From an uncultured Candidatus Saccharibacteria bacterium (lineage in GTDB: Bacteria > Patescibacteriota > Minisyncoccia > Phycocordibacterales > UBA918): a stretch of DNA of 64,000 bases. Position numbers and translations under genes: made by a program. Location: positions 1,521-65,520 of the forward strand of contig CAZYTF010000001.1 of assembly GCA_964649535.1 (NCBI GenBank), in the 5' to 3' direction. Shown here one piece after another: positions 10,280-55,363 of the stretch (positions are counted from its first letter, which is position 1; every line of letters begins with the position of its first letter). The notes under the pieces are model-generated. The model was given only the letters and a program-made list of their open reading frames with translations, made no database searches and was not told where the DNA came from.

Positions 10280-10690
10280 ATGGCAACAATAAATCAATTA
10301 ACAAAACGAAGTCGAAAAGACAAATCAACTAAGTCAAAGGTTGGTGCGCTTCAAGCGGGTTTTAACTCAATTAAAAACCGTACAAACGAATACAACTCTC
10401 CGTTCAAACGAGGAGTGTGTACTCGAGTGACTACAAAGACTCCACGTAAGCCGAACTCTGCGATTCGAAAGATTGCACGTGTTCGACTTTCAAACGGTCA
10501 GGAAATCACAGCGTACATCCCAGGTATCGGCCATACTCTACAGGAACACTCTGTTGTGCTTGTGCGAGGAGGACGCGTGAAGGACATTGGTGTGAACTAT
10601 ACTGTTGTACGCGGTAAATACGATGCGACTGGTGTTGATGCTCGACGACAGGGGCGCTCACGTTACGGCGCGAAAATGCCAAAGGAGTAA
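10280..10690 (+). CDS. rpsL: 30S ribosomal protein S12
   Basis: ATINQL...RGVCTRV...[17 protein letters not shown]...IPGIGH...VRGGRVKD. Confidence 0.95.
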
Positions 10691-11001
10691 TCCTTTAGAA
10701 AGCAGACCGCTTTCAAACAACATTACAAATAGTTTATATTCGCTACAGATAGTAGACGCGACTCAAGCTCCGGCTTCGGAGTCAAACTATGCGAAGAATG
10801 AAAATATGATTTTGTCATACTTCTCATTTCAATCGCTACTAGCTAGCAATTACAGCAGGGTGCAGCGACAGTCAAAGTTTGAGATTTTTTAATCTCTTAC
10901 AGAGACTGTATACCTTGTCGACATTTTTTAAAAAATATCAGGCAAGGTCTTGCGAAAGTCCCATGGACTTTCTCACGCTCCGCTTTTAACAAAAATAAGT
11001 C

Positions 11002-11475
11002 ATGCGACGACCAATTAAAAAACGAAACGTTGTACAGCCTGACATCAAGTTCGGTTCAGTAGACGTTGAACGACTCATCAACTACGTGATGCTTCGCGGA
11101 CAAAAGGAAACTGCACGAAAGATTGTGTATTCTGCGTTTGAAGAAATTAAAAATGCAAAGGAAGGCGGCGGCGACCCACTTGAAATCTTTGAGACAGCAC
11201 TTAAAAATGCTGGACCACAGATGGAGGTACGTTCACGACGTGTTGGTGGTGCAAACTACCAGGTTCCTCGTGAAGTTCGCCCAGAGCGACGTCATGCACT
11301 AGCGCTTCGATGGATTATCGCAGCAGCTCGTGGACACAAGGGAATCCCAATGCACAAAGCGCTTTCCAACGAACTTATGCTTGCAGCTAAGGAAGAAGGA
11401 AATGCAGTGAAGAAGAAGGAGGATACGCACAAGATGGCTGAAGCCAACCGTGCGTTCGCACACTTTGCCTGGTAA
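11002..11475 (+). CDS. rpsG: 30S ribosomal protein S7
   Basis: 157 aa. [15 protein letters not shown]...[14 protein letters not shown]. Confidence 0.95.
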
Positions 11476-15858: not shown

Positions 15859-16869
15859 CTATGAGGGTCGCTTCCCAAACTTTCGTGCAAGTTTGTAGAG
15901 TGCAAAAAGGATTCCAAAAAGAATGGTGAGTTGCACAAAAATAGCATGACCTAAATAGAAAGATACGCTCGCAAGTGTTGCGGTACATAGTGCACTCCAA
16001 ATATTCTTACTTACTAAAATTATTGAATTAAGAAAACTTCCTTCCTTTATTTCCGGCATATCGGGAGTTTCAATTGCAATGCCGTTATTTGTAGTTCTTG
16101 TGATTTGTCCGAACCCATCTTCGTTAACAAAAATTTCTGGGGGAGTGGTTTTTTCGGTCTCTGCTTCCTGACGAACTTCGCGGTAGGTATCTATATTTTG
16201 TTTGGTGGTATTCAAGATGTCCGTAAAGTTTGAAAGTGCAGTATATGCGGGGCTTGGCGTAAGGTATTGTTCAAATCCACGATTTTCTTTAGTTCTGGTT
16301 GCATCGGCGATGCCACCATCGTCGGTGACGTCAGTGTTTGCTTGATTTATGTTGTCTTGTTTTTCATTAAATACGAGTGGATTTGTATTATTTTCTTCTT
16401 CAACAGTGTCACTTATGCCGTCCCCATCATCGTCAATGTCATCTACGTTCCCAACACCATCTTTGTCAGTATCGTAGTCGACAAAAATTATGTCTTCTGC
16501 CAGAGCAGACGTAACTTCCACAGCTTTTGTTGAGGAGCCAACTTTTGAAAGTTCTGTGCGGGAAAGTGAAGCGGAAAGTGTGTGTTCACCATGGTCTGGT
16601 ATCCAATCAGTCCAACTCTCGACAATTCTTCCGTCAAGCGCTGACACTTCCGCCCGCCCTATAACCTTATTATTGTCGTAGAATTCGACACGTCCTGTCA
16701 GGTCCTCTCCTGTGTTGTTGCGAATGGCAACATAAATACGCACTGGTTCATTTGTAAAGATTTTTTCCTGAGAATACCAAAGCCCGTTAATAAGTCCCGC
16801 ATTAAATTCTTGCGCGAACGTACATGGTGTCAGTAGTGTAATGAGTAAAAATAAAAGCACCCACTTCAT
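15859..16869 (-). CDS. Secreted/anchored protein with thrombospondin type-3-like Ca-binding repeats
   Basis: Signal peptide MKWVLLFLLITLLTPCTFA, D-rich repeats DTDKDGVGNVDDIDDDGDGISD, and a C-terminal TM helix plus basic tail. Confidence 0.55.
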   Translation of the reverse strand: MKWVLLFLLITLLTPCTFAQEFNAGLINGLWYSQEKIFTNEPVRIYVAIRNNTGEDLTGRVEFYDNNKVIGRAEVSALDGRIVESWTDWIPDHGEHTLSASLSRTELSKVGSSTKAVEVTSALAEDIIFVDYDTDKDGVGNVDDIDDDGDGISDTVEEENNTNPLVFNEKQDNINQANTDVTDDGGIADATRTKENRGFEQYLTPSPAYTALSNFTDILNTTKQNIDTYREVRQEAETEKTTPPEIFVNEDGFGQITRTTNNGIAIETPDMPEIKEGSFLNSIILVSKNIWSALCTATLASVSFYLGHAIFVQLTILFGILFALYKLARKFGKRPS

Positions 16870-20225: not shown

Positions 20226-21521
20226 ATGTGCTGTACATCTGCGACTATGTTCTCTATGTCTACAAAAAAACTATGTGTGGGTTTGATTATTTACATCCTT
20301 GTTTTTCCTGGGAATGTTGCGTTGGCAAAAAATGATTCAGATACATTAGAATTACTCACGCATCAAATCACGGCACTTGAGAAATATATTGCACGCACGA
20401 ACCTTCGCATGGGGCTTTCTGAAGCCGTAGCTCTTCCTCGTGAAGACATGCGAGATGTAATAAAAAATGGAGTTGCTTGGCTTGTGGAAGCACAAGAGGG
20501 GACTGGTCATTTTGCATATGAATATTTGCCGTACAGTGATGAGTATAAGTATGGCGACAATATCGTGCGGCAGGCAGGTGCGCTGTACGCACTTACCGAA
20601 GTTGCTCGACGAGATGCTGTGGGAGATATGCATCGGTCTGCTGCTATCGAGGAAGCAGTAGTTTTTTTTGAAAATGCATCACTTGCACACACTTATGAAG
20701 GGAAGGAGGTTCGATGTCTTGCGAGAAACAAGGACAGTAAAACGTGCATCCTTGGCGCAACTGCTCTTGCGCTTGCGGGAGTACTTGGCTATGTTGAATC
20801 TGACCCAGCAAAAGCTAGTACGTACGAACATCTGATAGAAGGGTACATTTCATTTATCATGGCTTCCAAAAAAGAAGCCGCCGGTTTCCGTGATCAGTAT
20901 CGCATAGGGACGGGTTTTGTAGGTGATAAGGAGTCTTCGTTCTCAAACGGCGAAGCCTTGTTGGCTCTTGTTCGTTACTATCAGTATAGTCCGGACCAAG
21001 AAGTAAAAAGAATTATTGATGAAACTTTCTCTTATCTTGAAGTAATACCGTTTGATACCCCGCTGTACCTTTGGGCAATGGCAGCATTGAAAGACATGCA
21101 TGCACTTTGGCCAAGTGAAAAGTACACAACATATGGTGAGAAATTCACCGCTTGGCGCATGGGGTCGCTTTATAGAAGTCATGGCACCACTAGAAATTAT
21201 TGTGCCTCAACGGAAGGTTTGGCAAGCGCCTATACCCTTATTGAAGACTCTGCTTCAAAGGAGGTTCTAGAGCGTCTGCGAACAGAAATTGATTTTTGGA
21301 ATTTAAAAAATGTTGACTTACAAATTACATCAAATGATCTATACCGATTGGCTACACGCGAAGACGGAACGATCTTTTTGGAATTTGTGCAAAATCTGAA
21401 CAAAAGTAGGGGAGGCTTCTTAACAGCTGAAAACGAACTGACACAAAGAATCGATTTTACGCAACATTGTGTCAGTACCTATGTGCAAACGCTGGTTGAT
21501 ATTGATGGGCAGTTATTATAG
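20226..21521 (+). CDS. Secreted protein, possible alpha/alpha-toroid (prenyltransferase/terpene-cyclase-like repeats)
   Basis: Signal peptide. KNGVAWLVEAQEGTGHF resembles the QW-type repeat motif. Family assignment is low confidence. Confidence 0.45.
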   Translation: MCCTSATMFSMSTKKLCVGLIIYILVFPGNVALAKNDSDTLELLTHQITALEKYIARTNLRMGLSEAVALPREDMRDVIKNGVAWLVEAQEGTGHFAYEYLPYSDEYKYGDNIVRQAGALYALTEVARRDAVGDMHRSAAIEEAVVFFENASLAHTYEGKEVRCLARNKDSKTCILGATALALAGVLGYVESDPAKASTYEHLIEGYISFIMASKKEAAGFRDQYRIGTGFVGDKESSFSNGEALLALVRYYQYSPDQEVKRIIDETFSYLEVIPFDTPLYLWAMAALKDMHALWPSEKYTTYGEKFTAWRMGSLYRSHGTTRNYCASTEGLASAYTLIEDSASKEVLERLRTEIDFWNLKNVDLQITSNDLYRLATREDGTIFLEFVQNLNKSRGGFLTAENELTQRIDFTQHCVSTYVQTLVDIDGQLL

Positions 21522-21676
21522 GGACTTACGTTTATAAAAAATTGTAGCTAAAGAATGTTGCCCATTTGTTATATAAATTATGGCAGGGTGTAGGTTTCAA
21601 GCATGCAAATGGCCTAAACAAAACTAGCAAAATCAAGTACCTTGCATTGCATAGTACCTTGTGATAATATTTTGCT

Positions 21677-22087
21677 ATGGCAGATTCGTCACAAGATAGG
21701 AATCCTGGCAGCAATAACGAGCCAGTAATAAAAGACGTTTTGAAATACAATGTCGAAAATGCGCAGTCACAAATGCGAAAGGGTTTTTTGGAATTCCCTG
21801 TTCTTTTGATAATCGGTGCAAAGCCGACATATGCTCCAGATATTCTGAAGCAGCTTAAAAAGGCAAATTTATTAGTAGTAGAGGGTACATTATATCCTCT
21901 CTTATCGAGACTTAAGCGGCATGGCCTTGTTGGGTATGAATGGGAAGAGAGTAAAAGTGGCCCACCACGAAAAATGTACACCGTAACAGTCGAAGGAAAA
22001 GAAGTATTGCAGCAACTAGATGCGTCATGGAAAACTCTAGACACATCAGTAAATACACTAATCAAGCATTATGAAAAAGGTAATTAA
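21677..22087 (+). CDS. PadR-family transcriptional regulator
   Basis: GTLYPLLSRLKRHGLV...PRKMYTVT matches the PadR winged-helix signature. Confidence 0.8.
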   Translation: MADSSQDRNPGSNNEPVIKDVLKYNVENAQSQMRKGFLEFPVLLIIGAKPTYAPDILKQLKKANLLVVEGTLYPLLSRLKRHGLVGYEWEESKSGPPRKMYTVTVEGKEVLQQLDASWKTLDTSVNTLIKHYEKGN

Positions 22088-23306
22088 CATAACACTCGGA
22101 GGAATAGTTTTTGCTATAGAGCAAGATGCGTACGATACACTCGCTTCCTACCTTGAAGATATTAAAAAGAATCTTACTCTGACTGATGACGCCCAGGAAA
22201 TTGTGGGGGACATTGAAAGTGCAATTGCTGAGAAGTTTTCTGTACGCAAGCGTAATGAAAGGGTGGCAGTTACTGATGGGGATGTTGCGGCTGTGGTTTC
22301 TGAAATGGGCAGCCCTGCTGACTTTCGTGAAAGCGAAGATGCTGACACCACAAGTTCAGTGCATGCACAGGTTTCGTCAGACGCGACTGTTAAAAAGCGA
22401 CTGTATCGTGATACTGACGACGCTATCGTTGCTGGTGTTGCTTCGGGGCTCGCCAAGTATTTCGACATCGACCCTGTAATTGTGAGACTTGCTTTTGTTA
22501 TCTCAATTTTCTTCAATGGACTGGGCATCCTTGCATACAGTATCTTGTGGTTAGTTATTCCGAAGGCAGAAACCACTGCACAAAAATACGCTATGCGAGG
22601 TGAGAAGGTGACACTTAAAGAAATCACTGAACAAGTAAAAAAAAATTTGAAAGGTCTTGATGAAGTGGATATGAGTAGTGCAAAAAGTGCATGGACTCCA
22701 ATTCGAAATTTTCTCAACAAAGTATTTATTGTGCTCGGAATTATTGTGCTGGCCTTTGTAAGGATGCTTCGATATCTGGGAGGCTTCTTGGTTCTGATGG
22801 TCGGTGCTTTTTCACTCGCAGCACTAGTCTCTGTATATAGTGTTGTGTTGTTATCTGATCAAATATTTATACCTACTGAAGCTCAGACTGCTGTTAGCAT
22901 TATGGTCAGCAGCGTTTCAGGTATTCTAGCCATCGCCTCTTCTTTTGTTGTTTCTGCTATTCCGTTACTCTTTTTGATTTTGATTGGTGGAAGTTTGCTT
23001 GTAAAACGAAACTTATGTACTGCTTCGAAAACTATTACACTTGTAGTGGTATGGATTATCGCTATCGTACTTGCGGTTACAGCTTCAGCTCTGCAGGTGG
23101 AAAAGGTTATGCATGCTTTGAGTACTGATAGTTTTAAACATGACGAGTACCAAGTCTACATTAATCTAGGAGAAAGTGATGAAAATGAAGACTCAGTTGA
23201 GTTGCGGTGGGGGGATGAAGAAATGTCTATTGTATCTACAGAGTCACAAGATTTGCCTGATGCTCTAGCTTCAGAAGAAAGTTCAATTGAGTTCGATGCG
23301 CAATAA
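22071..23306 (+). CDS. PspC-domain membrane protein (DUF1700-like N-terminus)
   Basis: LYRDTDDAIVAGVASGLAKYFDIDPVIVRLAFV is the PspC domain. Followed by multiple TM helices and an acidic C-terminus. Overlaps PadR, an operon-like layout. Confidence 0.7.
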   Translation: MKKVINITLGGIVFAIEQDAYDTLASYLEDIKKNLTLTDDAQEIVGDIESAIAEKFSVRKRNERVAVTDGDVAAVVSEMGSPADFRESEDADTTSSVHAQVSSDATVKKRLYRDTDDAIVAGVASGLAKYFDIDPVIVRLAFVISIFFNGLGILAYSILWLVIPKAETTAQKYAMRGEKVTLKEITEQVKKNLKGLDEVDMSSAKSAWTPIRNFLNKVFIVLGIIVLAFVRMLRYLGGFLVLMVGAFSLAALVSVYSVVLLSDQIFIPTEAQTAVSIMVSSVSGILAIASSFVVSAIPLLFLILIGGSLLVKRNLCTASKTITLVVVWIIAIVLAVTASALQVEKVMHALSTDSFKHDEYQVYINLGESDENEDSVELRWGDEEMSIVSTESQDLPDALASEESSIEFDAQ

Positions 23307-23391
23307 AATTACAGGATAAAAATGTGTAGATTAAATCTACACATTGACTTATTTAGGTTGCAATTTGGCCATAAAGGGGGATAATTTAGAC

Positions 23392-23871
23392 ATGAGGTTA
23401 TTATCAAACATTTTGTTTGTCGTGAGTGCTATATTTATTTTGGCTTGCGTTGGGTTGTATTTATTTAGTACTGCCCAAATTGCAGAAGCTCCAGTGATGG
23501 ATGTAGGTAGTGTAGACACAGCTGAGTCAGTAGTCATGGTTTCAGTCAATTCTTTTGAAGAGTGTGCAGCAGTTGGTAATCCTGTAATGATGTCTAGTCC
23601 AGCGCAGTGTCGCCACAATGGTGTGCTTTATACTGAGGAAGCTGTAGTTTCAGCTGAGCCGCAAGAAGGTGAAACTGTTTGTTCTCCTGAATCGAAGTTA
23701 GCCGAAGTTTGCACAATGGAATATGCGCCAGTGTGTGGTTTGGTGCAGGTACAGTGCGTGACTACACCGTGTAACCATGTTCCGGAAACTTTTTCAAACG
23801 ACTGCATGGCGTGTGCACAAGAAAATGTTATTTCGTATAAAGAAGGTGAGTGTTCACTAGAAGTTCAATAA
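23392..23871 (+). CDS. Secreted Cys-rich protein with a Kazal-like domain
   Basis: Signal/TM anchor. CTMEYAPVCG...TFSNDCMAC matches the Kazal Cys spacing and the Y-x-PVCG and N-x-C motifs. AAAGGGGG ribosome-binding site. Confidence 0.55.
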   Translation: MRLLSNILFVVSAIFILACVGLYLFSTAQIAEAPVMDVGSVDTAESVVMVSVNSFEECAAVGNPVMMSSPAQCRHNGVLYTEEAVVSAEPQEGETVCSPESKLAEVCTMEYAPVCGLVQVQCVTTPCNHVPETFSNDCMACAQENVISYKEGECSLEVQ

Positions 23872-24197
23872 TTATGTTTGCAATAATAAAAGGTTATATA
23901 GCGTATATAAAAGATAATCCTGAGGGCTTTTGGTTTAAACGAAAAGCATACGGCTATGGTTGGACGCCAGCAACAATAGAAGGTTGGCTTGTGACACTCG
24001 GTTCTTTTCTCTTTATACTCGGCATTGTGTTGCGAGCTGACCGTCTGGAAATTAAAGAAAGTGAAGCGCTTATACAAGTAGTTATCCCGATGTTTACGGT
24101 GATAGGGTTTCTTATTTTGATTTGTTTAAAGACAGGAGAGTCTCCAAAGTGGCAGTGGAAATTGCCAAAAAAATATTTCGAAGACACTAAAGATTAG
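23850..24197 (+). CDS. Small membrane protein, unknown function
   Basis: Two predicted TM helices. The start codon is ambiguous. Confidence 0.35.
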   Translation: MFTRSSIIMFAIIKGYIAYIKDNPEGFWFKRKAYGYGWTPATIEGWLVTLGSFLFILGIVLRADRLEIKESEALIQVVIPMFTVIGFLILICLKTGESPKWQWKLPKKYFEDTKD

Positions 24198-26275
24198 ACT
24201 GCTTGCCATTTTTTTAAAAATTTTGATAGTACAAGTGAGGCAACAAAGATGACTACCGAAAGACCAAGATATTTTGGGTCGAGGGTATTAAATGATATTC
24301 CATCCATTTTGAATGATTCAATATCAAGTGATGCGCCGATTGAAACAAAAGTTGCGGTGCCCAAAAGAATCCCCACAAAAGTCGCTGCAATAAATGGAAC
24401 AAATGCAGTCTTTAGTATCCCCGCAATATAACTCACACCATCAAATGGCAGGAAGATAAGTCGCATGGTTAGTATTGAAATGAATGTATTTTTTTGGAGA
24501 GAGGTAACCCAATTCCCAATGATTGAATCTTCTGGAGATAATCCCTTTCCAAAAAAACGCCCAACGGCATACGCAACACCTGAAGATAAAGTTGCTGCGA
24601 GTATGGTAAGTACAGTACCGCCCCAGAAGCCAAAAAATATACCCGAAAGTATCGTGAGTGCTGTGGCAGGGAAGAAGGTAAGTGGTCGTAGCGCATATAC
24701 CAGCACATAAAGCAGTGGTCCCCAGATGGTCATGGTGATGAAGTCAAAAATCATCAGCGCTGTTTCTGTCGTACCCATTCCATGTGCAGTTTTATAAATA
24801 TAAAGCTGCAAAAGACCCATAAGCCATAGAGCTCCTACAAGAATTTTAGGAGTGTGTTTTTTGAGTAGATATAAAATGTCTGATTTTAAATTTGAAATTT
24901 GCTGGGCAAAGAAATGATCACCTGCTTTCTTGACGACAAGTGAGTACGTTGGATATGCATACATAATGTTGCGCAAACTCCACATGGAAATCTTTTTATC
25001 TAGAGCAAGTGTAAAAATTGATATGAGTTCACCTGCGGATGGTCCGATTATGTTCGCTCCAAGCACGGCCCCATTAAGCCTCTTTGCATACACGACGAGA
25101 AGCCCATCTGTGTCGCTATCTGTTTGAGCTCTATCGTTTTCTAGGAAAGGAACCTCAATGCGCATGACTTCTTTTTCCGTATATTTTTGAAGTGCGTCTT
25201 GGTATGACATGCCGACTTGTGCGATTTCTGGTTCAGTATAGGTTACTTTTGGAACTGCTTTTTTATTGTCTGCACGTAGGAATCCCTTTGAGACAACATG
25301 TGTAACAACTTGCCGTGCGCTATCGTTTGCCGTGTGCGTAAATTTTAAACGTTGTGCAATATCACCAACAGCGTATACATGTTTATTTGAGGTGCGGTGC
25401 TGTTTGTCGACTTGGATGCCGTATGTATCTGCTGCAATTCCTGCGGTGTCTAATCCTTTTGGGAAATTGGGCAAACGACCAACTGCATAGAGGATTTTGT
25501 CATACGCGACACGTACTTCAGTGAGTGTCGATTCGTTACCGTTTTCCTTGATCTCAAATAGGGCTTGTTTGTTTTCGACTTCTTTTATAAACGCATTGAG
25601 GTGTATGGTTATTCCTAAATTGGTGAAAACTTTTTGGATAATAGGCGATACTGCTTCGTCTTCGAGTCGCGCAAAACGGTCGTTTACATCGGCAATGGTT
25701 ACGTTACTCCCAAGCATTGCAAACGCTTGTCCCATCTCCATGCCAATCGGTCCTGCACCTACGATGAGTAATCGTTCGGGAACGGTTTCTAAATCAAAGA
25801 TATTTTGATTTGTGAGAATGTCGTTCTGGCTAATTCCAGGGACGTTAATCATTCGTGGGCTTGAGCCGGTCGCAATGACGGCATGTTTGTAACCAAACTC
25901 TGATTCTTCAATTTTGATAGTGCATGGTGCAACAAATTCCGCTTCTCCAAATTCAACGTCAATACCTTGAGCACGAAACGCCTCAGGAGTTTCGTGCTCC
26001 AAAATACCTTCAACCTTACTTCGTACATATACAAAAGCATTCGTGCGGTATGCTTCATTTTTTTTGTTTTTACCAGAGATAGTGAGTGCACTATGGAATG
26101 ATTTTGCATGATGTAGTAATGCTTTAGACGGTATACACCCGGAGTTGGTGCATTCTCCTCCCATATGTTCTTGTTCTACAAGCAATGTTTTTCTTCCAAT
26201 TTTAGCGAAACCGGTAGCGGCAGTAAGTCCGCCTGAGCCTGCACCAATCACCACAACATCGTAGTCTTTTTTCAT
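24194..26275 (-). CDS. Fusion protein: N-terminal FAD/NAD(P) pyridine-nucleotide-disulfide oxidoreductase (lipoamide/mercuric-reductase-like) plus C-terminal DedA/TVP38 (SNARE-associated) membrane domain
   Basis: DYDVVVIGAGSGG and the redox-active GGECTNSGCIPSK disulfide motif at the N-terminus. The C-terminal roughly 230 aa are polytopic with the DedA-like segment FPATALTILSGIFFG. Confidence 0.8.
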   Translation of the reverse strand: MKKDYDVVVIGAGSGGLTAATGFAKIGRKTLLVEQEHMGGECTNSGCIPSKALLHHAKSFHSALTISGKNKKNEAYRTNAFVYVRSKVEGILEHETPEAFRAQGIDVEFGEAEFVAPCTIKIEESEFGYKHAVIATGSSPRMINVPGISQNDILTNQNIFDLETVPERLLIVGAGPIGMEMGQAFAMLGSNVTIADVNDRFARLEDEAVSPIIQKVFTNLGITIHLNAFIKEVENKQALFEIKENGNESTLTEVRVAYDKILYAVGRLPNFPKGLDTAGIAADTYGIQVDKQHRTSNKHVYAVGDIAQRLKFTHTANDSARQVVTHVVSKGFLRADNKKAVPKVTYTEPEIAQVGMSYQDALQKYTEKEVMRIEVPFLENDRAQTDSDTDGLLVVYAKRLNGAVLGANIIGPSAGELISIFTLALDKKISMWSLRNIMYAYPTYSLVVKKAGDHFFAQQISNLKSDILYLLKKHTPKILVGALWLMGLLQLYIYKTAHGMGTTETALMIFDFITMTIWGPLLYVLVYALRPLTFFPATALTILSGIFFGFWGGTVLTILAATLSSGVAYAVGRFFGKGLSPEDSIIGNWVTSLQKNTFISILTMRLIFLPFDGVSYIAGILKTAFVPFIAATFVGILLGTATFVSIGASLDIESFKMDGISFNTLDPKYLGLSVVIFVASLVLSKFLKKWQAV

Positions 26276-27144: not shown

Positions 27145-29331
27145 ATGGCACGAGCATTTCCACTCGAAAAACTACGCAACTTCGGTATTGTTGCGCACGT
27201 TGACGCAGGTAAGACAACTACATCTGAACGAATTCTGTTCTACACAGGTATGAGTCACAAAATTGGTGAAGTGCACGATGGTGCAACGGTTACTGACTGG
27301 ATGGATCAAGAGCGAGAGCGGGGTATTACTATTACTGCGGCTGCAATTTCTTGTAACTGGTCTAAAACGCTTGAAGAAGATCGAAAGGACAAAAGCAAAA
27401 TGTTCACGTTTAACATTATTGATACTCCAGGTCACATCGACTTTACTGCGGAAGTAAAGCGTTCGATGCGTGTGCTTGACGGTGCTGTTGTTGTATTTGA
27501 CGGTGCCGCAGGTGTTGAGCCGCAAACAGAAACAAACTGGGGATACGCTGACGAAGCTGCAGTGCCTCGAATCTGTTTTGTAAACAAAATGGACAAACTC
27601 GGCGCTGACTTTGACGCTTCAGTAAAGTCTATTGAAGAACGACTTTCAAAGAAAGCATGCCGAATCCAGATTCCTATGGGAGCTGAAGACAACATGCGAG
27701 GCGTGGTTGATCTTATCGCGATGAAGTCATACACATTTGCTGGTGAAATGGGAATGGAAGTTACCGAAGCTGAAATTCCTGAAGAATTCCTTGCGGAAGC
27801 TACTGCTCGACGAGCTGAGCTTATTGAACGTGTTGTGGAACATGATGATGTGCTTATGGAAGCGTTTCTTGAAGGAAACGAGCCAACAAATGAAGATCTC
27901 AAAAAAACACTTCGGAAAGCAGTGCTCGCAAATGAGATTTTTCCAGTCATGACCGGAACGGCTCTAAAAAATATCGGTGTACAGCTCGTGCTCGATGCAG
28001 TGGTGGATTACCTCCCGTCACCACTAGACCTGCCTCCGACTCACGGAACAGATCCAAAAGACGAGGAAGTTGTTGTTGAACGCAACCCTTCTGACGAAGA
28101 GCCATTCTCTGCGCTTGTGTTTAAGCTCCAGGATGACAAATTCGTTGGACAGCTTGCATTCTTTCGTGTGTATTCTGGTGCTGTAAAAGCAGGAAGTTAC
28201 ATCCTCAACTCTTCAACAGGGGACAAAGAGCGAGTAGGACGAATCGTTCGACTTATGGCTGATAAACGAGAAGAAGTCGATGAAGTGTACGCAGGAGAAA
28301 TTGCTGCAGCAGTAGGTATCAAAGAAGTTAAGACTTCGCATACACTTTGTGACGTAAATGCTCCAATTCTTCTTGAAACAATCACGTTTCCAGAGCCAGT
28401 AGTTGCGGTGCGTGTTGAACCTAAGACAAAGCAAGACCAGGAAAAGATGGGTGTTGCACTTAAGCGTCTTTCAGACGAAGACCCAACATTCAAGGTTTCA
28501 ACAGACGATGAAACAATGGAAACGATTATTGCAGGTATGGGTGAACTCCACCTCGACATTATTGTCGACCGTATGAAGCGAGAATTTGGTGTTGAAGCAA
28601 ATATCGGCCAGCCACAAGTTGCGTACCGAGAAACAATTCAGCGCGAAGCTGAGGCAGAGCACAAATACATCAAACAGTCAGGTGGTCGTGGACAGTACGG
28701 TCACGTTAAGATTCGTATCAAGCCACTTGAGCCACTTGCTAAAGATGCAGACGGTGAAGACGAAAAAGTTGCCAAGAATGTGACCCGTGAAGATCACTTT
28801 GAATTTATCAACAGTATTAAGGGAGGTGTTATTCCGCAGGAATACATTTCTCCTGTTATGAAGGGATGTAAGGAAGCAATGGCGCGAGGTGCAGTTGCTG
28901 GATACAAGATGGAAGATGTGTCAGTAGAGCTCTACGATGGTTCATTCCATGACGTGGACTCGTCTGAAATTGCCTTTAAACTTGCCGGCATTAATGCCTT
29001 CAAGGAGGCTGCGCGAAGAGCTAACGCTGTTATTCTTGAGCCGATTATGAAGGTTGAGGTGCGTACTCCAGAAGAATATCTTGGAGATATCAATGGGAAT
29101 ATCTCTTCAAAGCGTGGACAAGTCGAAGCGTCTGAAGAACTTGGAGGTAAAACTATTGTGCACGCAAAAGTCCCTCTTTCAGAAATGTTTGGGTATACAA
29201 ACTCATTGCGTTCGATGACACAAGGACGTGCGTCCATGACAATGGAGTTTGATCACTACGAAGTGGTGCCTCCAAATGTTGCGGAAGAAATTAAGAAAGC
29301 CCGCGGAGTGAAGACTGAAGAGGAGGTGTAA
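27145..29331 (+). CDS. fusA: Elongation factor G
   Basis: 728 aa with the G domain AHVDAGKTT, DTPGHIDF, NKMD, and conserved domains II-V. Confidence 0.95.
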   Translation: MARAFPLEKLRNFGIVAHVDAGKTTTSERILFYTGMSHKIGEVHDGATVTDWMDQERERGITITAAAISCNWSKTLEEDRKDKSKMFTFNIIDTPGHIDFTAEVKRSMRVLDGAVVVFDGAAGVEPQTETNWGYADEAAVPRICFVNKMDKLGADFDASVKSIEERLSKKACRIQIPMGAEDNMRGVVDLIAMKSYTFAGEMGMEVTEAEIPEEFLAEATARRAELIERVVEHDDVLMEAFLEGNEPTNEDLKKTLRKAVLANEIFPVMTGTALKNIGVQLVLDAVVDYLPSPLDLPPTHGTDPKDEEVVVERNPSDEEPFSALVFKLQDDKFVGQLAFFRVYSGAVKAGSYILNSSTGDKERVGRIVRLMADKREEVDEVYAGEIAAAVGIKEVKTSHTLCDVNAPILLETITFPEPVVAVRVEPKTKQDQEKMGVALKRLSDEDPTFKVSTDDETMETIIAGMGELHLDIIVDRMKREFGVEANIGQPQVAYRETIQREAEAEHKYIKQSGGRGQYGHVKIRIKPLEPLAKDADGEDEKVAKNVTREDHFEFINSIKGGVIPQEYISPVMKGCKEAMARGAVAGYKMEDVSVELYDGSFHDVDSSEIAFKLAGINAFKEAARRANAVILEPIMKVEVRTPEEYLGDINGNISSKRGQVEASEELGGKTIVHAKVPLSEMFGYTNSLRSMTQGRASMTMEFDHYEVVPPNVAEEIKKARGVKTEEEV

Positions 29332-29350
29332 GGGTTGAAATATATAATGC

Positions 29351-29381
29351 AAAAAGTGCGAGGGCTAAGCCCTTGCACTTT
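29351..29381 (+). terminator. Intrinsic terminator after fusA
   Basis: 11-bp stem agtgcgagggc/gcccttgcact followed by a T-run. Confidence 0.6.
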
Positions 29382-29388
29382 TTACATA

Positions 29389-29428
29389 TAAAACCCGGTA
29401 GCTCACAAGCTTCCGGGTTGGGTGATTT
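29389..29428 (+). terminator. Second hairpin after fusA
   Basis: aacccgg-(14 nt)-ccgggtt. Confidence 0.4.
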
Positions 29429-29433
29429 TAGTT

Positions 29434-29619
29434 TCAACGCACCTGCTCAATGGTTGCAGATGCAAACTCAGTTTCAGAGTTGCGATATGAAACAATAGGT
29501 CTGCTTTTCTCGATGTGCATCGTGCTGGCAAGCCATATTAGGCATAGCGCAGGCAAGCCCATAACACAAAGTGCTGGCAAGCAGATGTAAAGAGTTCTCA
29601 AGAAACTTCTTTTCATCAT
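29434..29619 (-). CDS. Small membrane protein (61 aa)
   Basis: GGGAG ribosome-binding site and one TM helix. Confidence 0.35.
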   Translation of the reverse strand: MMKRSFLRTLYICLPALCVMGLPALCLIWLASTMHIEKSRPIVSYRNSETEFASATIEQVR

Positions 29620-29703
29620 TACTCCACTCCCTTTGTTGTAAGTACAGGATACTATTGTTCCTCACATTTGCCTAGTATATGATGCAAAAAATACTAAAAA
29701 ACC

Positions 29704-29731
29704 CTTGCAAAAACGCATTGCTCATGTACAA
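29704..29731 (+). promoter_or_regulatory. Sigma70-like promoter for tuf
   Basis: TTGCAA, a 16-nt spacer, then TACAAT, about 190 nt upstream of tuf. Confidence 0.4.
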
Positions 29732-29920
29732 TACCGCCACCGCTTCGGCTTTTTGCTGGAAGTGGAGTAATCATATGATGCTCCTTTACACTCTTGCTGA
29801 GTGAGCAGACGTAGTGCGATGTTCTCGCGGAACTACTTCTGAATGCTCAGACAAAGCTTTTTATTTTATTAAAAGCAGCCGTGTGCGGTAATTTATTAAA
29901 GGTAATTAATCTTACTATTT

Positions 29921-31114
29921 ATGGCAGATTTTGATCGGTCAAAAGCACACGTAAACGTTGGTACTATTGGTCACGTTGACCACGGAAAAACTACGCTTAC
30001 AGCTGCAATTTTGAACGTGCTACACGCACATGAGTCAGAAGGGTATTCAGCTAACCTTAAAGCTGTTGAAGATATTGACAAGGCACCTGAGGAAAAGGCT
30101 CGAGGAATTACTATTTCTCTTTCTCACTCAGAGTACGAAACTCCAACTCGACACTACGCACACATTGATGCGCCAGGTCACGCGGACTACATTAAGAACA
30201 TGATTACTGGTGCTGCTCAGATGGATGGTGCTGTGCTCGTTGTTGCTGCAACAGATGGGGCTATGCCACAAACACGTGAGCACGTTCTTCTCGCAAAGCA
30301 AGTTGGTGTACCAAACATTATCGTTTTCTTGAACAAGTGCGATATGGTTGATGATGAAGAAATGATTGAACTCGTTGAAGAAGAACTTCGTGAACTTTTG
30401 ACAAAGAATGGTTTTGACGGAGCGAATGCTCCAATCATCAAAGGTTCTGGTCTTAAAGCTCTTGAAGAACCAACAGGCGAATGGGGAGATAAGGTGCTTG
30501 AACTTGCGAAAGCGATGGATGAGTACTTCCCGCTTCCAGAACGTGAGCTTGATAAGCCATTTCTTATGCCAGTTGAAGACATTTTCTCAATCGAAGGACG
30601 CGGTACTGTAGTTACAGGACGTGTTGAGCGAGGAGCTGTAAAGGTGGGTGAAGAAATTGAAATCGTTGGTATCAAGGATACTGCTCTTACAACTGTTACA
30701 GGTGTTGAGATGTTCAACAAGCAATTGGATCGAGCTCAAGCTGGAGACAATGCTGGTATTCTTCTCCGAGGTATTAAAAAGGAAGACATTCACCGAGGAC
30801 AGGTACTTTCTGCTAAAGGTTCAGTAACTCCACATACAGAGTTTGAAGCTGAAGTATACGTACTTTCTAAGGAGGAAGGTGGTCGACACACGCCATTCTT
30901 TACAGGTTACAAACCACAGTTCTACATCCGTACAACAGACGTAACGGGAGACGTTACGCTTGCTGAAGGTACAGAAATGGTTATGCCAGGAGATACTGCA
31001 ACTTTCAAAGTGAAGCTTGTAGCTCCAGTAGCTCTTGAAGATCAGCAGAACTTTGCGATTCGAGAGGGTGGCAAGACCGTTGGTGCTGGTGTGGTAACTA
31101 AGATTGTTGCGTAA
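29921..31114 (+). CDS. tuf: Elongation factor Tu
   Basis: [21 protein letters not shown]. 397 aa. Confidence 0.97.
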
Positions 31115-45426: not shown

Positions 45427-46104
45427 ATGAGCGAAGAAAAAAAGCAGGAAGCTACAACGCCGGAAGTCGCAGTCGCGACACCAGCACCAGAAGCCACAAA
45501 GGCTTCTACCGATGCACCCGCTACTGTTTCTTCTGCAACGCCAGCAACTGGTGAAGCAGGACAGCCAGCAACAGGGAATCGACCAGCTCGAGGACCACGA
45601 GGTGCGCGAGGAGGTGATAGAGCGCGTAATCCACGTCGACCACGACGTGGTGGACGACGAGACGACCGCGCACGTCAGGAGTATGAGCAAAAAATCATCA
45701 GTATCCGTCGAGTTACTCGTGTGATGGCTGGAGGACGACGATTCTCATTCTCAGTTGCAATGGTTATAGGTGATAAAAAAGGCAAGGTTGGTGTAGGAAT
45801 CGGCAAGGCTGGTGATACGCAGCTTGCAATTGAGAAAGCGATGCGAGATGCAAAGAAATGTCTCATTACTGTCCCCATGAACAAGGACGGACACCTTCCA
45901 CATGACGTGCATACTAAGTATGCATCAAGTGAAGTAATGATTATGCCAGCACCAGGTCGAGGACTTGTTGCCGGTTCATCAGTACGAACCGTACTTGAAC
46001 TTGCGGGAGTAAAAGATGTGACCGCAAAGATTTTCTCACGAAGCAAGAACAAACTAAATAATGCTCGAGCAGCTATTGAGGCACTTAAGCAGTTGAAAGC
46101 CTAA
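45427..46104 (+). CDS. rpsE: 30S ribosomal protein S5 with a roughly 60-aa low-complexity A/T/P/R-rich N-terminal extension
   Basis: IRRVTRVMAGGRRFSF...GIGKAGD core. N-terminal MSEEKKQEATTPEVAVATPAPEA...RGARGGDRARNPRRPRRGG. Confidence 0.9.
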   Translation: MSEEKKQEATTPEVAVATPAPEATKASTDAPATVSSATPATGEAGQPATGNRPARGPRGARGGDRARNPRRPRRGGRRDDRARQEYEQKIISIRRVTRVMAGGRRFSFSVAMVIGDKKGKVGVGIGKAGDTQLAIEKAMRDAKKCLITVPMNKDGHLPHDVHTKYASSEVMIMPAPGRGLVAGSSVRTVLELAGVKDVTAKIFSRSKNKLNNARAAIEALKQLKA

Positions 46105-46115
46105 ATTATACGAAT

Positions 46116-46565
46116 ATGCAATTACACGAACTAAAACCAACAACTCCTCGAAAGACTGAAAAGCGAATCGGTCGTGGGGGAAAGCGTGGTAAAACTTCAG
46201 GAAAGGGTCATAAAGGTCAAAAGGCACGAGCAGGAAATAGTACTCGACCTGAGATGCGGGAAATCATCAAGAAGATTCCAAAACTTCGTGGTCACGGTGT
46301 AAACCGCGCGAAGACTGTAAATAATGAACGGATACTTCCTACTATTGTGAATGTTGCTGCACTAGAAACAGCTTTCGAGGCTGGAGCAGCAGTAAACCCA
46401 AATGCACTTGTTGCAGCTGGTGTTATCGGAAATCGTCGAAAGAAAGCCCCAACGGTAAAGATTCTTGGAAATGGTGAGCTTACTAAGAAATTAACAGTAA
46501 CTGGATGTATTGTTTCTGCTTCAGCTAAAGAAAAGATTGAAAAAGCTGGAGGGAGCATCGCATAA
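46116..46565 (+). CDS. rplO: 50S ribosomal protein L15
   Basis: RIGRGGKRGKTSGKGHKGQKAR. Follows rpsE directly, so there is no L30 gene. Confidence 0.9.
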   Translation: MQLHELKPTTPRKTEKRIGRGGKRGKTSGKGHKGQKARAGNSTRPEMREIIKKIPKLRGHGVNRAKTVNNERILPTIVNVAALETAFEAGAAVNPNALVAAGVIGNRRKKAPTVKILGNGELTKKLTVTGCIVSASAKEKIEKAGGSIA

Positions 46566-54919: not shown

Positions 54920-55363
54920 TTAAGATAATTTCTTTTGATGACAGGTGGTACATTTACAACCCCCAGGACCAATAATGTCTCTCATGTAGTCTTTCCCGTA
55001 ATTGTAAGTAAACTCCTCCCCAGCTTTAATATTTTTGCAAGCCCGAATATAAATTCGGTCGTCATCTTCATCATGCTCGGCTTCGCAATTTGGCTTGCAT
55101 GCATGATTTATATAGCGTGCTGTGTTTTTTCTGTTTTTGCCATCAATTACGAGCGTGTCAGTAACTTCGAAAAGATATCTCCCCCCTCGTCGGTTTGCTT
55201 CATCTTCACTAATTCTGTCCCCTGTATACTCAATAATGAGTTGTTCTTTTTGTATAGCTTCCCCGGCAAAAAGACCCAAGCCAGCACTCGATCGTTTTAC
55301 GCTAACCTTCGGTCGGTATAAATCGTCAAACATAATGCGGTTGAGTATAGCAAACAAAAACAT
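54920..55363 (-). CDS. SET-domain protein (putative lysine methyltransferase) with a post-SET Cys cluster
   Basis: GLGLFAGEAIQKEQLIIEYTG, RYINHACKPNC and EEFTYNYG are the SET signatures. C-terminus CKCTTC. Confidence 0.75.
   Translation of the reverse strand: MFLFAILNRIMFDDLYRPKVSVKRSSAGLGLFAGEAIQKEQLIIEYTGDRISEDEANRRGGRYLFEVTDTLVIDGKNRKNTARYINHACKPNCEAEHDEDDDRIYIRACKNIKAGEEFTYNYGKDYMRDIIGPGGCKCTTCHQKKLS

What the first reader, a model, noticed from the sequence alone, without database searches (positions are those of the whole stretch)
23392..23871. Kazal-like protease-inhibitor domain in a secreted bacterial protein
The C-terminal 60 aa have the Kazal Cys framework and the hallmark Y-x-PVCG and N-x-C motifs (CTMEYAPVCG...ETFSNDCMAC). 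Kazal domains are rare in bacteria. In an epibiotic or parasitic CPR cell, a secreted serine-protease inhibitor could protect surface proteins from host proteases.
Basis: partly seen in the sequence, partly recalled or inferred. Interest (0 to 1): 0.5.

Follow-up and report, generated by a model that had tools for sequence, protein, structure and literature searches.

The report
Membrane-anchored eight-cysteine Kazal-type protease inhibitor
This gene of an ultra-small (Patescibacteria/CPR) bacterium encodes a membrane-tethered protein whose C-terminal domain is a true Kazal-type protease-inhibitor domain. The domain carries an extra 12-residue, disulfide-stapled insertion, and in related genomes it sits next to, or is fused to, a PspC envelope-stress sensor.

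Summary
Window 23392-23871 (+) is a real 159-aa gene, found identically in three independent assemblies.

- **Kazal homology.** Residues 94-154 are a Kazal homologue. The native Pfam hit is below threshold (19.1 bits against a cut-off of 21) only because 12 residues (119-130, QVQCVTTPCNHV, with two extra Cys) are inserted in the beta-hairpin.
  - Removing those residues in silico gives Kazal_1 33 bits and 42 PDB Kazal chains.
  - hhalign against canonical bacterial Kazal domains gives 99.4 % probability with one clean 12-residue gap.
- **Reactive loop.** The loop CTMEY (P1 = Met109) is identical to that of silver-pheasant ovomucoid. The loop-supporting Asn is kept. P1, P1' and P18' are among the most variable columns.
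- **Distribution.** The family is large (1131 clusters at E <= 1e-10), is unannotated in the sources searched, and lies mostly in Patescibacteria and DPANN archaea.
- **Anchoring.** The protein is anchored by an N-terminal TM helix rather than freely secreted.
- **Context.** The gene follows a PadR + HAAS-PspC-LiaI-LiaF-TM stress-sensor pair. In five relatives the Kazal domain is fused to the C-terminus of that sensor or of its multi-TM region.

Inhibitory activity, the target protease and the sensor link are inferred, not shown. Verdict: a new variant of a known kind, of moderate interest.

The parts
23392..23871 (+). Gene for the 159-aa membrane-anchored Kazal-type protein (P0001)
   Evidence: ORF and sequence. 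The identical gene call is found on ENA, Logan and JGI contigs. There are 41 homologues at E <= 0.01.
23395..23472 (+). N-terminal hydrophobic helix, residues 2-27 (signal anchor or TM tether)
   Evidence: AF2 predicts helix 2-27 with pLDDT 87-98. An equivalent hydrophobic N-terminus is present in the homologues shown in the alignment. That it is not cleaved is an inference.
23542..23637 (+). Module A, residues 51-82 (SFEECAAVGNPVMMSSPAQCRHNGVLY; C58/C73), a small two-Cys domain of unknown function
   Evidence: pLDDT 91-95. It is conserved in relatives. It also exists as a stand-alone mini-protein family of 141 hits with no Pfam match and has no PDB relative.
23671..23853 (+). Kazal-type domain, residues 94-154 (CysI C97 to CysVI C154)
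23710..23727 (+). Predicted reactive-site loop P3-P3' (C107 T108 M109 E110 Y111 A112), with P1 = Met109
   Evidence: It aligns residue for residue with CTMEY of OMSVP3 and CTLEY of OMTKY3. P1 and P1' are among the most variable columns, at 2.56 and 2.24 bits.
23746..23781 (+). 12-residue insertion, residues 119-130 (QVQCVTTPCNHV), with the extra Cys pair C122/C127
   Evidence: It is the single clean gap in the hhalign alignment. AF2 shows it extending the beta-hairpin. The two Cys are both present in 250 and both absent in 78 of 370 domains.
21677..22087 (+). PadR-family winged-helix regulator, upstream in the same orientation
   Evidence: Pfam PadR, E 2.5e-18. It lies next to Kazal genes in L004, L008, L011 and L015.
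22071..23306 (+). HAAS-PspC-LiaI-LiaF-TM membrane stress-sensor protein (411 aa), overlapping PadR by 17 nt
   Evidence: Pfam PspC 1.8e-24, LiaI-LiaF-TM_PspC 2.1e-10, HAAS 5.5e-5. Orthologues in L011, L015 and P0091 carry the Kazal domain fused at their C-terminus.
21636..21657 (+). Conserved box AGTACCTTG-N8-AGTAC upstream of PadR (candidate PadR operator)
   Evidence: It occurs once in the window. The same box lies upstream of PadR in L004, L008 and L011. Its function is inferred.
23321..23345 (.). Perfect 11-bp inverted repeat with a 3-nt loop, between the PspC stop and the Kazal start
   Evidence: It is unique in the window. The scan calls it terminator-like. It forms a hairpin in the MFE and centroid folds. 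Its role is undecided.
23874..24197 (+). 107-aa small membrane protein, starting 2 nt after the Kazal stop
   Evidence: Gene call. Homologues lie next to Kazal genes in L011, L013, L014, L015, L018 and L020. It has no Pfam family.

Best explanation
The gene encodes a cell-surface protein held in the membrane by an N-terminal helix. It displays a C-terminal Kazal-type domain on the outside.

The domain is a canonical (Laskowski standard-mechanism) inhibitor. A rigid, disulfide-braced loop, C107-T-M109-E-Y, would dock like a substrate into the active site of a serine protease of the chymotrypsin (S1) or subtilisin (S8) type and block it. P1 = Met predicts specificity for chymotrypsin-, streptogrisin-, elastase- or subtilisin-like enzymes.

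Compared with classical Kazal domains, the beta-hairpin is lengthened by 12 residues. Its tip is stapled by a fourth disulfide (C122-C127).

The inhibitor is part of, or works with, a PadR/HAAS-PspC-LiaI-LiaF-TM envelope-stress module. It is encoded directly downstream of that module here and is fused to the extracytoplasmic C-terminus of the PspC sensor in relatives. The likely role is therefore defence or surveillance of the cell envelope against extracellular proteases from hosts, competitors or the cell itself.

Shown: homology, predicted fold, loop conservation, anchoring helix, gene linkage and fusion.

Inferred: disulfide pairing, inhibitory activity, specificity, topology and physiological role.
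For: **Homology.**
- hhalign of the family profile against 12 canonical Kazal domains from the same kind of bacterial proteins gives 99.4 %, E 3.7e-21, with one 12-residue gap.
- Those 12 domains pass the Pfam gathering score for Kazal_1, and their first member also for Kazal_2.
- The insertion-excised window domain scores 33.0 bits on Kazal_1 and matches 42 PDB Kazal chains.
- Nine of the 185 retrieved relatives, most with lipoprotein-like signal peptides (for example P0053 and P0102), mix canonical and insertion-type domains in tandem.

**Fold.**
- AF2 pLDDT is 86 for the domain alone and 92-97 for the domain within the full-length model.

**Inhibitor features.**
- P3-P2' (CTMEY) is identical to OMSVP3.
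- The Asn that braces the loop (N136, equivalent to Asn33) is conserved in 119 of 124 domains.
- Y111, P113, V114 and the Cys are invariant or nearly so.
- P1 (M41, E37, K11, R9, Q8, A7, D7), P1' and the P18' equivalent (3.18 bits, the maximum) are among the most variable columns. This is the pattern known for Kazal contact residues.
- Pacifastin-like inhibitor domains follow the Kazal-like domain in P0040, P0069 and three others.

**Disulfides.**
- CysI and CysV are lost together in at least 57 domains.
- The extra pair is present or absent together in 328 of 370 domains.

**Context.**
- PadR-PspC-Kazal gene order is found in the window and in L004, and the genes are adjacent in L008.
- The domain is fused to full-length PspC proteins in L011, L015 and P0091, and to LiaI-LiaF-TM fragments in L017 and P0148.
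- The HAAS-PadR dyad is described as a membrane-stress signalling pair in PMC11237479.
Against: - No biochemical data exist for any member.
- The native sequence fails the Pfam gathering score, and Foldseek against the PDB found nothing.
- Disulfide pairing could not be read from model coordinates.
- No serine protease gene was found among the ~40 window ORFs scanned.
- Many family members have P1 Glu, Asp or Ala, which are poor P1 residues for most well-studied proteases.
- Several non-contact surface columns are as variable as P1, so the hypervariability argument is only suggestive.
- The PspC linkage is seen in only 5 of 38 GTDB loci plus the window, and several of those loci are syntenic relatives rather than independent cases.
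- The candidate PadR box is absent upstream of the Kazal gene, and a terminator-like hairpin separates the gene from PspC.
Confidence: 0.6

Rival explanations
1. The Kazal-type domain is mainly a sensor head, or bait, of the HAAS-PadR/PspC signalling module. An extracellular serine protease binds or clips the exposed reactive loop. The event is relayed through the PspC/LiaI-LiaF-TM membrane domains to HAAS, which releases or reconfigures PadR and switches on an envelope-defence programme. In the window the head is a separate TM-anchored subunit; in L011, L015 and P0091 it is covalently fused.
For: - There are recurrent C-terminal fusions to the sensor protein.
- The same extracytoplasmic tail carries another protein-binding module (LRR) in L004, and LRR + module B + Kazal architectures occur in P0028 and P0082.
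- PspC is proposed to act as a sensor domain, and HAAS-PadR as an alternative to two-component systems (PMC11237479).
Against: - Most family members are stand-alone or multi-headed proteins with no PspC nearby (33 of 38 GTDB loci).
- No signalling by a Kazal domain is known.
- The hairpin and the lack of a PadR box upstream of the gene argue neither for nor against this reading.
- The topology (C-terminus outside) is only inferred.
Confidence: 0.15
2. It is a Kazal-fold module that no longer inhibits proteases, as with the follistatin, SPARC, agrin and HtrA1 Kazal-like domains. It would serve as a stable disulfide-rich binding or adhesion module on the surface of an epibiotic cell, for example for host attachment.
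For: - The domain is combined with LRR, PKD, peptidoglycan-binding and other surface modules in relatives.
- P1 is often acidic.
- No protease partner lies in the neighbourhood.
Against: - The loop-defining residues that non-inhibitory Kazal-like domains usually lose are kept here and are nearly invariant across the family: Thr at P2, Glu at P1', Tyr at P2' and the Asn33 equivalent.
- The best sequence matches are true inhibitors such as ovomucoid, PSTI and the elastase inhibitor.
- The domain co-occurs with pacifastin-like inhibitor domains.
Confidence: 0.2
3. The resemblance is a chance match of a Cys-rich low-complexity peptide, and the ORF is not a Kazal relative.
For: The native Pfam score is below the gathering threshold, and Foldseek against the PDB gave no hit.
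Against: - hhalign gives 99.4 %, E 3.7e-21.
- The score is 33 bits after excising the insertion.
- The domain occurs in tandem with bona fide Kazal domains.
- 1131 clusters match at E <= 1e-10.
Confidence: 0.02

Closest known systems
Avian ovomucoid third domains (OMSVP3, OMTKY3); Kazal family, Pfam PF00050, MEROPS I1
   Different: There is a 12-residue insertion with a fourth predicted disulfide in the hairpin. The CysV-CysVI segment is shorter, at 12 residues. The protein is prokaryotic and membrane-anchored, with an extra N-terminal module. No activity has been measured.
Canonical six-Cys Kazal domains of uncharacterised bacterial proteins, mostly lipoprotein-like (for example P0053, P0102, P0072)
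   Same: The scaffold is nearly identical outside the insertion: CTMEYAPVCG...TYSNSCMAC...SYVEGEC in P0102. Both types occur in tandem in the same proteins, with hhalign 99.4 % between them.
   Different: Those domains lack residues 119-130 and the extra Cys pair, and they pass the Pfam thresholds. They are lipid-anchored and multi-headed, whereas the window protein is single-headed and helix-anchored.
Oomycete and apicomplexan secreted Kazal inhibitors (Phytophthora EPI1/EPI10; Tian et al. 2004, cited in PMC5014320)
   Same: The concept is the same: a symbiont or parasite puts Kazal domains on its outside to neutralise proteases of the organism it lives on. Some of those domains are also atypical and have lost Cys pairs.
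   Different: Those proteins are eukaryotic, soluble effectors with demonstrated targets (P69B). Here the target and activity are unknown, and the variant gains rather than loses a disulfide.
HAAS-PadR / PspC / LiaI-LiaF-TM envelope-stress signalling systems (PMC11237479)
   Same: The two upstream genes have exactly this architecture. The Kazal domain is fused to the sensor in relatives.
   Different: No Kazal or protease-inhibitor partner is mentioned in that survey: the words 'Kazal' and 'protease inhibitor' do not occur in it. The Toastrack domain typical of many such systems is absent here.
Pacifastin-like domains reported in CPR MAGs (PMC13388995)
   Same: This is another animal-type, disulfide-rich serine-protease-inhibitor fold found in CPR genomes. 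It occurs in the same polypeptides as the Kazal-like domain in P0040 and P0069.
   Different: It is a different fold and family, and it is not present in the window protein.

Membership tests
Kazal-type inhibitor domain (Pfam PF00050/PF07648; MEROPS I1) | Match to the family HMM at or above the curated gathering score | tested here: inconclusive
   The native sequence scores 19.1 bits, below 21. 25 of 41 homologues also hit only weakly. With the 12-residue insertion excised the score is 33.0 bits, E 6e-8. Transitive link: hhalign gives 99.4 % to domains that pass the threshold.
Kazal-type inhibitor domain (Pfam PF00050/PF07648; MEROPS I1) | Six-Cys framework with CysII-x7-CysIII, [YF]-x-N-x-CysIV-x2-CysV and a C-terminal CysVI | tested here: met
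   C97, C107-x7-C115, T-F-S-N-D-C138-x2-C141 and C154 are read directly from the sequence. They are invariant or nearly invariant in 41 homologues. Two additional Cys (C122, C127) lie in the insertion.
Kazal-type inhibitor domain (Pfam PF00050/PF07648; MEROPS I1) | Fold: short alpha-helix packed on a small three-stranded antiparallel sheet | tested here: met
Kazal-type inhibitor domain (Pfam PF00050/PF07648; MEROPS I1) | Disulfide topology I-V, II-IV, III-VI | tested here: inconclusive
Indirect support: CysI and CysV are lost together in at least 57 of 370 domains, and the extra pair is present or absent together in 328 of 370.
Kazal-type inhibitor domain (Pfam PF00050/PF07648; MEROPS I1) | Canonical reactive-site loop (P3 Cys, P2 Thr, P1, P1' Glu, P2' Tyr) braced by the conserved Asn | tested here: met
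   CTMEY aligns with CTMEY of OMSVP3 and CTLEY of OMTKY3. N136 is conserved in 119 of 124 domains and Y111 in 122 of 124, while P1 is variable.
Kazal-type inhibitor domain (Pfam PF00050/PF07648; MEROPS I1) | Tight, substrate-like inhibition of serine proteases | not testable with these tools
   This needs enzymology.
HAAS-PadR / PspC envelope-stress module (as an accessory component) | Encoded in the same gene neighbourhood as a PadR wHTH and a HAAS-PspC membrane protein | tested here: met
   The window has PadR at 21677-22087, HAAS-PspC-LiaI-LiaF-TM at 22071-23306, and the Kazal gene 85 nt downstream. The same neighbourhood is seen in L004 and L008.
HAAS-PadR / PspC envelope-stress module (as an accessory component) | Domain fusion with the sensor in other genomes (Rosetta-stone link) | tested here: met
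   L011, L015 and P0091 are full PspC proteins carrying module B and the Kazal domain. L017 and P0148 are LiaI-LiaF-TM fragments carrying the Kazal domain.
HAAS-PadR / PspC envelope-stress module (as an accessory component) | Co-transcription with, or regulation by, PadR | tested here: inconclusive
   The candidate PadR box occurs only upstream of PadR. A terminator-like hairpin lies between PspC and the Kazal gene. There are no expression data.

The most novel reading that the evidence does not exclude
The Kazal-type domain is the extracellular input module of a protease-sensing signalling pathway. Docking or cleavage by an exogenous serine protease at the reactive loop is transmitted through PspC/LiaI-LiaF-TM to the cytoplasmic HAAS domain, which controls the PadR repressor. 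An ultra-small epibiont would thereby detect proteolytic attack, or contact with a host, and switch on envelope defence. This would be the first case of a canonical protease-inhibitor fold used as a receptor in prokaryotic signal transduction.
Probability: 0.12. Interest if true: 0.8.

Novelty: new variant of a known kind. Interest (0 to 1): 0.5.

Why it matters
Kazal inhibitors are a textbook animal and protist family, and no prokaryotic member has been characterised to my knowledge.

- **A hidden family.** A large family (over 1000 sequence clusters) sits in Patescibacteria and DPANN archaea. Standard HMMs miss it because of one stereotyped insertion with an extra disulfide.
- **An ecological role.** These organisms live attached to other cells and have very few genes, so keeping surface-tethered, often multi-headed inhibitors with variable P1 residues suggests that extracellular proteolysis is a major selective pressure in episymbiosis.
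- **A testable link.** The recurrent fusion to a PspC/HAAS-PadR sensor gives a concrete, testable connection between protease exposure and envelope-stress signalling. It also supplies a candidate input or output for a signalling system whose signals are unknown.
- **A protein scaffold.** The eight-Cys scaffold is a compact, probably very stable inhibitor framework of possible interest for protein engineering.

Tried and rejected
- **The afdb50 library was unavailable**, so I could not see how UniProt names relatives.
- **NCBIfam** gave no hit.
- **Cognate protease.** I found none among the ~40 window ORFs scanned with Pfam, only an M50 site-2 protease and an M24 methionine aminopeptidase.
- **PadR operator in front of the Kazal gene.** The conserved box upstream of PadR does not recur there. 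The palindrome at 23321-23345 is unique. It scores as terminator-like, but its overall folding z-score is unremarkable at -1.2, so its role is left open.
- **Lipoprotein reading of I-L-A-C19.** Rejected, because the Cys is not conserved in homologues.
- **Frameshifted remnant of a PspC::Kazal fusion.** Rejected. The gene has its own TM helix and module A, stand-alone homologues exist, and the sequence is identical in three assemblies.
- **Module A** gave no PDB relative. A first 37-aa query was too short for the homology search.
- **Rfam** found nothing in the window.
- **The Kantyka/Rawlings/Potempa review** on prokaryotic inhibitors could not be read. Statements on earlier knowledge of bacterial Kazal homologues therefore rest on my memory.

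Full report
**1. The observation**

Window 23392-23871 (+) is an ORF of 159 codons, with ATG at 23392 and a TAA stop ending at 23871. The same 159-aa product is called on independent ENA, Logan and JGI contigs, the longest read being 165 kb. The database lists one of 260 kb. The gene is therefore real and not an assembly artefact. Its G+C content (42.5 %) equals that of the window (43 %), and it is the only copy in the window.

The C-terminal domain has eight cysteines, not six: 97, 107, 115, 122, 127, 138, 141 and 154.

**2. Is it a Kazal domain?**

The raw tests are weak.
- Pfam Kazal_1 gives E 0.0014 and 19.1 bits, below the gathering score of 21.
- NCBIfam gives nothing.
- phmmer against PDB sequences gives one Kazal chain at E 0.09.
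- 25 of 41 homologues give similar sub-threshold Kazal_1 hits.
- A profile of the domain (A2, 31 sequences) retrieves mostly Kazal inhibitors from the PDB (frizzled CRD chains are the main exception) at E 0.003-1. The match always comes in two pieces that flank an unmatched stretch.

The reason for the weakness became clear from an exhaustive profile search of 1.84 billion cluster representatives. It found 2839 hits at E <= 1e-3 and 1131 at E <= 1e-10. Among the 185 proteins retrieved in all, nine, most with lipoprotein-like signal peptides, carry both ordinary short Kazal domains and the long type in tandem. P0053, for example, scores 101 bits on Kazal_1 for its three short domains.

Outside one segment the two types are nearly identical:
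- P0102: CTMEYAPVCGNNGKTYSNSCMACGDGVSSYVEGEC
- window: CTMEYAPVCGLVQVQCVTTPCNHVPETFSNDCMACAQENVISYKEGEC

Three tests then confirm homology.
- hhalign of the long-type profile against 12 such short domains gives probability 99.4 %, E 3.7e-21, with 47 aligned columns and a single clean 12-residue gap that corresponds to window residues 119-130.
- All 12 short domains pass the Pfam gathering score for Kazal_1, and their first member also for Kazal_2.
- Excising residues 119-130 from the window sequence in silico raises Kazal_1 to 33.0 bits, E 6e-8. It also yields 42 PDB Kazal chains at E <= 0.01, with ovomucoid at 1.8e-11.

**3. Fold**

AlphaFold2 models are confident.
- The domain alone has mean pLDDT 86.
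- In the full-length model the domain has pLDDT 92-97.
- The secondary structure is strand 114-118, strand 130-134, helix 137-142 and strand 146-151. Bridge residues at 121 and 126 show the insertion prolonging the first hairpin.

I could not read model coordinates, so the disulfide pairing is inferred. Support comes from 370 domain instances.
- CysI and CysV, which pair in Kazal domains, are missing together in at least 57 domains.
- C122 and C127 are both present in 250 domains and both absent in 78, with 42 mixed cases.

This is what is expected if the three canonical bridges are kept and the two extra Cys bond to each other across the four-residue V-T-T-P turn.

**4. Inhibitor features**

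The alignment to solved inhibitors places C107-T108-M109-E110-Y111 on P3-P2' of the reactive loop. The five residues are identical to silver-pheasant ovomucoid third domain (CTMEY) and one residue away from turkey OMTKY3 (CTLEY). P1 is therefore Met109.

I compared 124 unique domains with the same Cys spacing.

| Position | Conservation or variability |
|---|---|
| All Cys, P113, V114 | invariant |
| Y111 | 122 of 124 |
| N136 (equivalent to loop-bracing Asn33) | 119 of 124 |
| P1 (residue 109) | 2.56 bits: M41, E37, K11, R9, Q8, A7, D7 |
| P1' (residue 110) | 2.24 bits |
| Residue 139 (equivalent to contact residue P18') | 3.18 bits, the highest |

Hypervariable contact residues on a rigid scaffold are a known hallmark of Kazal inhibitors (Laskowski and co-workers; from my own knowledge). 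A few non-contact surface columns are equally variable, so this argument is only suggestive.

From published P1-variant series of OMTKY3 (from memory), Met at P1 binds well to chymotrypsin, streptogrisins, elastases and subtilisin.

Further circumstantial support is that pacifastin-like inhibitor domains follow the Kazal-like domain in P0040, P0069 and three others. A 2026 paper independently reports pacifastin-like domains in CPR MAGs (PMC13388995).

**5. The rest of the protein**

- Residues 2-27 form a hydrophobic helix. It is followed by a conserved A-E-A-P motif.
- The ~20-residue hydrophobic stretch, and Pro at +1 of the only AxA site, argue for an uncleaved signal anchor. This is an inference.
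- Cys19 is not conserved, so a lipobox is unlikely.
- Relatives are tethered by a helix, by a lipobox, or by fusion to a membrane protein. Surface display, not release, is the common theme.
- Residues 51-82 form a small, confidently modelled two-Cys module (A). It has no Pfam or PDB relative. It also exists as a widespread stand-alone mini-protein.
- Relatives shuffle this module with a four-Cys module B, a ~100-aa module D and LRRs. The Kazal-type domain is last in most of them, though pacifastin-like or other segments follow it in some.

**6. Genomic context**

The genes run as follows.

| Coordinates | Strand | Feature |
|---|---|---|
| 21677-22087 | + | PadR regulator |
| 22071-23306 | + | HAAS-PspC-LiaI-LiaF-TM membrane protein, overlapping PadR by 17 nt |
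| 23307-23391 | | 85-nt spacer with a perfect 11-bp hairpin |
| 23392-23871 | + | Kazal gene |
| 23874-24197 | + | 107-aa membrane protein, starting 2 nt after the Kazal stop |
| 24194-26275 | - | Convergent pyridine-nucleotide-disulfide oxidoreductase::DedA fusion |

The HAAS-PadR dyad with PspC/LiaI-LiaF-TM has been proposed as an envelope-stress signalling pair that replaces a two-component system (PMC11237479). That survey does not mention Kazal domains or protease inhibitors.

Among 38 GTDB loci carrying the domain, the linkage is as follows.
- The same PadR-PspC-Kazal order occurs in L004, and the genes are adjacent in L008.
- In L011 and L015 the locus is syntenic with the window (ABC-F 80 % and PadR 86 % identical in L011; PadR 83 % in L015). 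There the Kazal-type domain is fused, after module B, to the C-terminus of the PspC protein itself.
- P0091 is a third such full-length fusion.
- L017 and P0148 fuse the domain to a LiaI-LiaF-TM fragment.
- In L004 the PspC tail carries LRRs instead.

Because the fused modules are disulfide-rich, the tail of the sensor must be extracytoplasmic. That fits five TM segments and the charge distribution, but it remains an inference.

A conserved box, AGTACCTTG-N8-AGTAC, lies upstream of PadR in the window, L004, L008 and L011. It does not lie upstream of the Kazal gene, and the spacer hairpin scores as terminator-like. Whether the inhibitor is co-regulated with the sensor is therefore open. No serine protease is encoded among the ~40 window ORFs scanned.

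**7. Organism and distribution**

S5 (45427-46104) is followed after 11 nt by L15, with no L30 gene between them. From my knowledge, this is a trait of the candidate phyla radiation. The nearest loci are Patescibacteria MAGs.

The 38 GTDB hits are nearly all Patescibacteria: Saccharibacteria, Kaiser-, Pacei-, Nomura-, Gracili-, Peri- and Magasanikiibacteria. There are also two DPANN archaea and three others, one of which (L015, labelled Patiriisocius) is probably mis-binned.

No source names these proteins as anything but 'hypothetical', and none carries a precomputed Pfam domain. Full-text searches found no paper linking Kazal domains to Patescibacteria or CPR beyond the pacifastin study.

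**8. Verdict**

The feature is best described as a membrane-anchored, eight-cysteine variant of the Kazal inhibitor domain with P1 Met. It belongs to a large, unannotated CPR/DPANN family and is genetically coupled to a PspC/HAAS-PadR envelope-stress sensor. Inhibitory activity is likely (about 0.6) but unproven.

The main rivals are a non-inhibitory binding module and a protease-sensing input domain for the PspC pathway. The sensor reading is the most novel one not excluded.

Novelty: a new variant of a known kind. Interest: moderate (0.5).

Noticed in passing
window 23542-23637 (residues 51-82); P0186-P0305: Module A (F-E-E-C-x-A-G-N-P-V-M-E-S-Y-P-R-Q-C-R...F-V-E) is strikingly conserved. 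It also exists as a stand-alone 55-80 aa lipoprotein or anchored mini-protein in Patescibacteria, Woesearchaeota, Euryarchaeota, Electrothrix and Limnocylindria. There are 141 hits, no Pfam family and no PDB relative. Its function is unknown.
   Followed up: partly
relatives only (for example L011 ORF 4711-6195, P0003-P0017): A four-Cys module B (A-C-T-x-D-A-K-x-C-P-D-G-S-x-V-G-R-x-G-P-x-C-x-F-x-x-C-P) precedes the Kazal-type domain in about 70 of 185 relatives. A ~100-aa module D (G-x-P-I-E-G-F-x-P...D-F-x-G-V-E-A) occurs in others. Neither has a Pfam match, and both are absent from the window protein.
   Followed up: partly
P0040, P0069, P0064, P0078, P0149: Pacifastin-like inhibitor domains (sub-threshold Pfam hits, E 1e-3 to 1e-4) sit next to Kazal-type domains in the same proteins. 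This matches a 2026 report of pacifastin-like domains in CPR MAGs.
   Followed up: partly
window 21636-21657: A conserved box, AGTACCTTG-N8-AGTAC, lies about 20 nt upstream of the PadR start. It is shared with L004, L008 and L011 and is a candidate PadR autoregulatory operator. It occurs only once in the window.
   Followed up: partly
window 23321-23345: A perfect 11-bp inverted repeat (AATGTGTAGAT-TAA-ATCTACACATT) lies between the PspC stop and the Kazal start. It is unique in the window and terminator-like on both strands. A TTGCAA-16-GATAAT promoter-like site follows at 23358-23385.
   Followed up: partly
window 10280-11475 and 27145-31114: The str operon is split. S12-S7 are separated from EF-G and EF-Tu by about 15.7 kb. 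That stretch holds the Kazal locus, an ABC-F protein, kinases and several secreted proteins without a Pfam family.
   Followed up: no
window 45427-46565: Ribosomal protein S5 is followed after 11 nt by L15, with no L30 gene between them. This is consistent with a CPR genome.
   Followed up: partly
window 24194-26275 (-): A 693-aa fusion joins a class-I pyridine-nucleotide-disulfide oxidoreductase (GGECTNSGC redox motif) to a DedA/VTT membrane domain. It is convergent with the Kazal operon and syntenic in L011, L014 and L015 (57-60 % identity). A role in envelope redox chemistry is conceivable but untested.
   Followed up: no
L015 (JBLHQB010000009.1): This contig is labelled Patiriisocius sp. 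(Flavobacteriaceae). Its locus is syntenic with, and 52-83 % identical in protein sequence to, Patescibacteria loci and the window. It is probably a mis-binned contig.
   Followed up: no
window 54920-55363 (-): A 147-aa SET-domain protein (Pfam SET, E 2e-25) is encoded in a bacterial genome.
   Followed up: no
window 59265-60653 (+): A GNAT acetyltransferase is fused to an NAD kinase in one 462-aa protein.
   Followed up: no
window 20226-21521 (+) and 15859-16869 (-): Two large predicted secreted proteins lie upstream of the locus. The 431-aa one has no Pfam family and a homologue in L009. The 336-aa one has weak Big_3_5 and bacterial TSP3 repeat hits. Both are likely surface proteins.
   Followed up: no
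P0042, P0044: The best-scoring hits of the domain profile are 500-800 aa proteins with 6-10 tandem insertion-type domains and Pro-rich linkers. Their signal peptides look eukaryote-like. The eight-Cys variant may therefore not be confined to prokaryotes.
   Followed up: no
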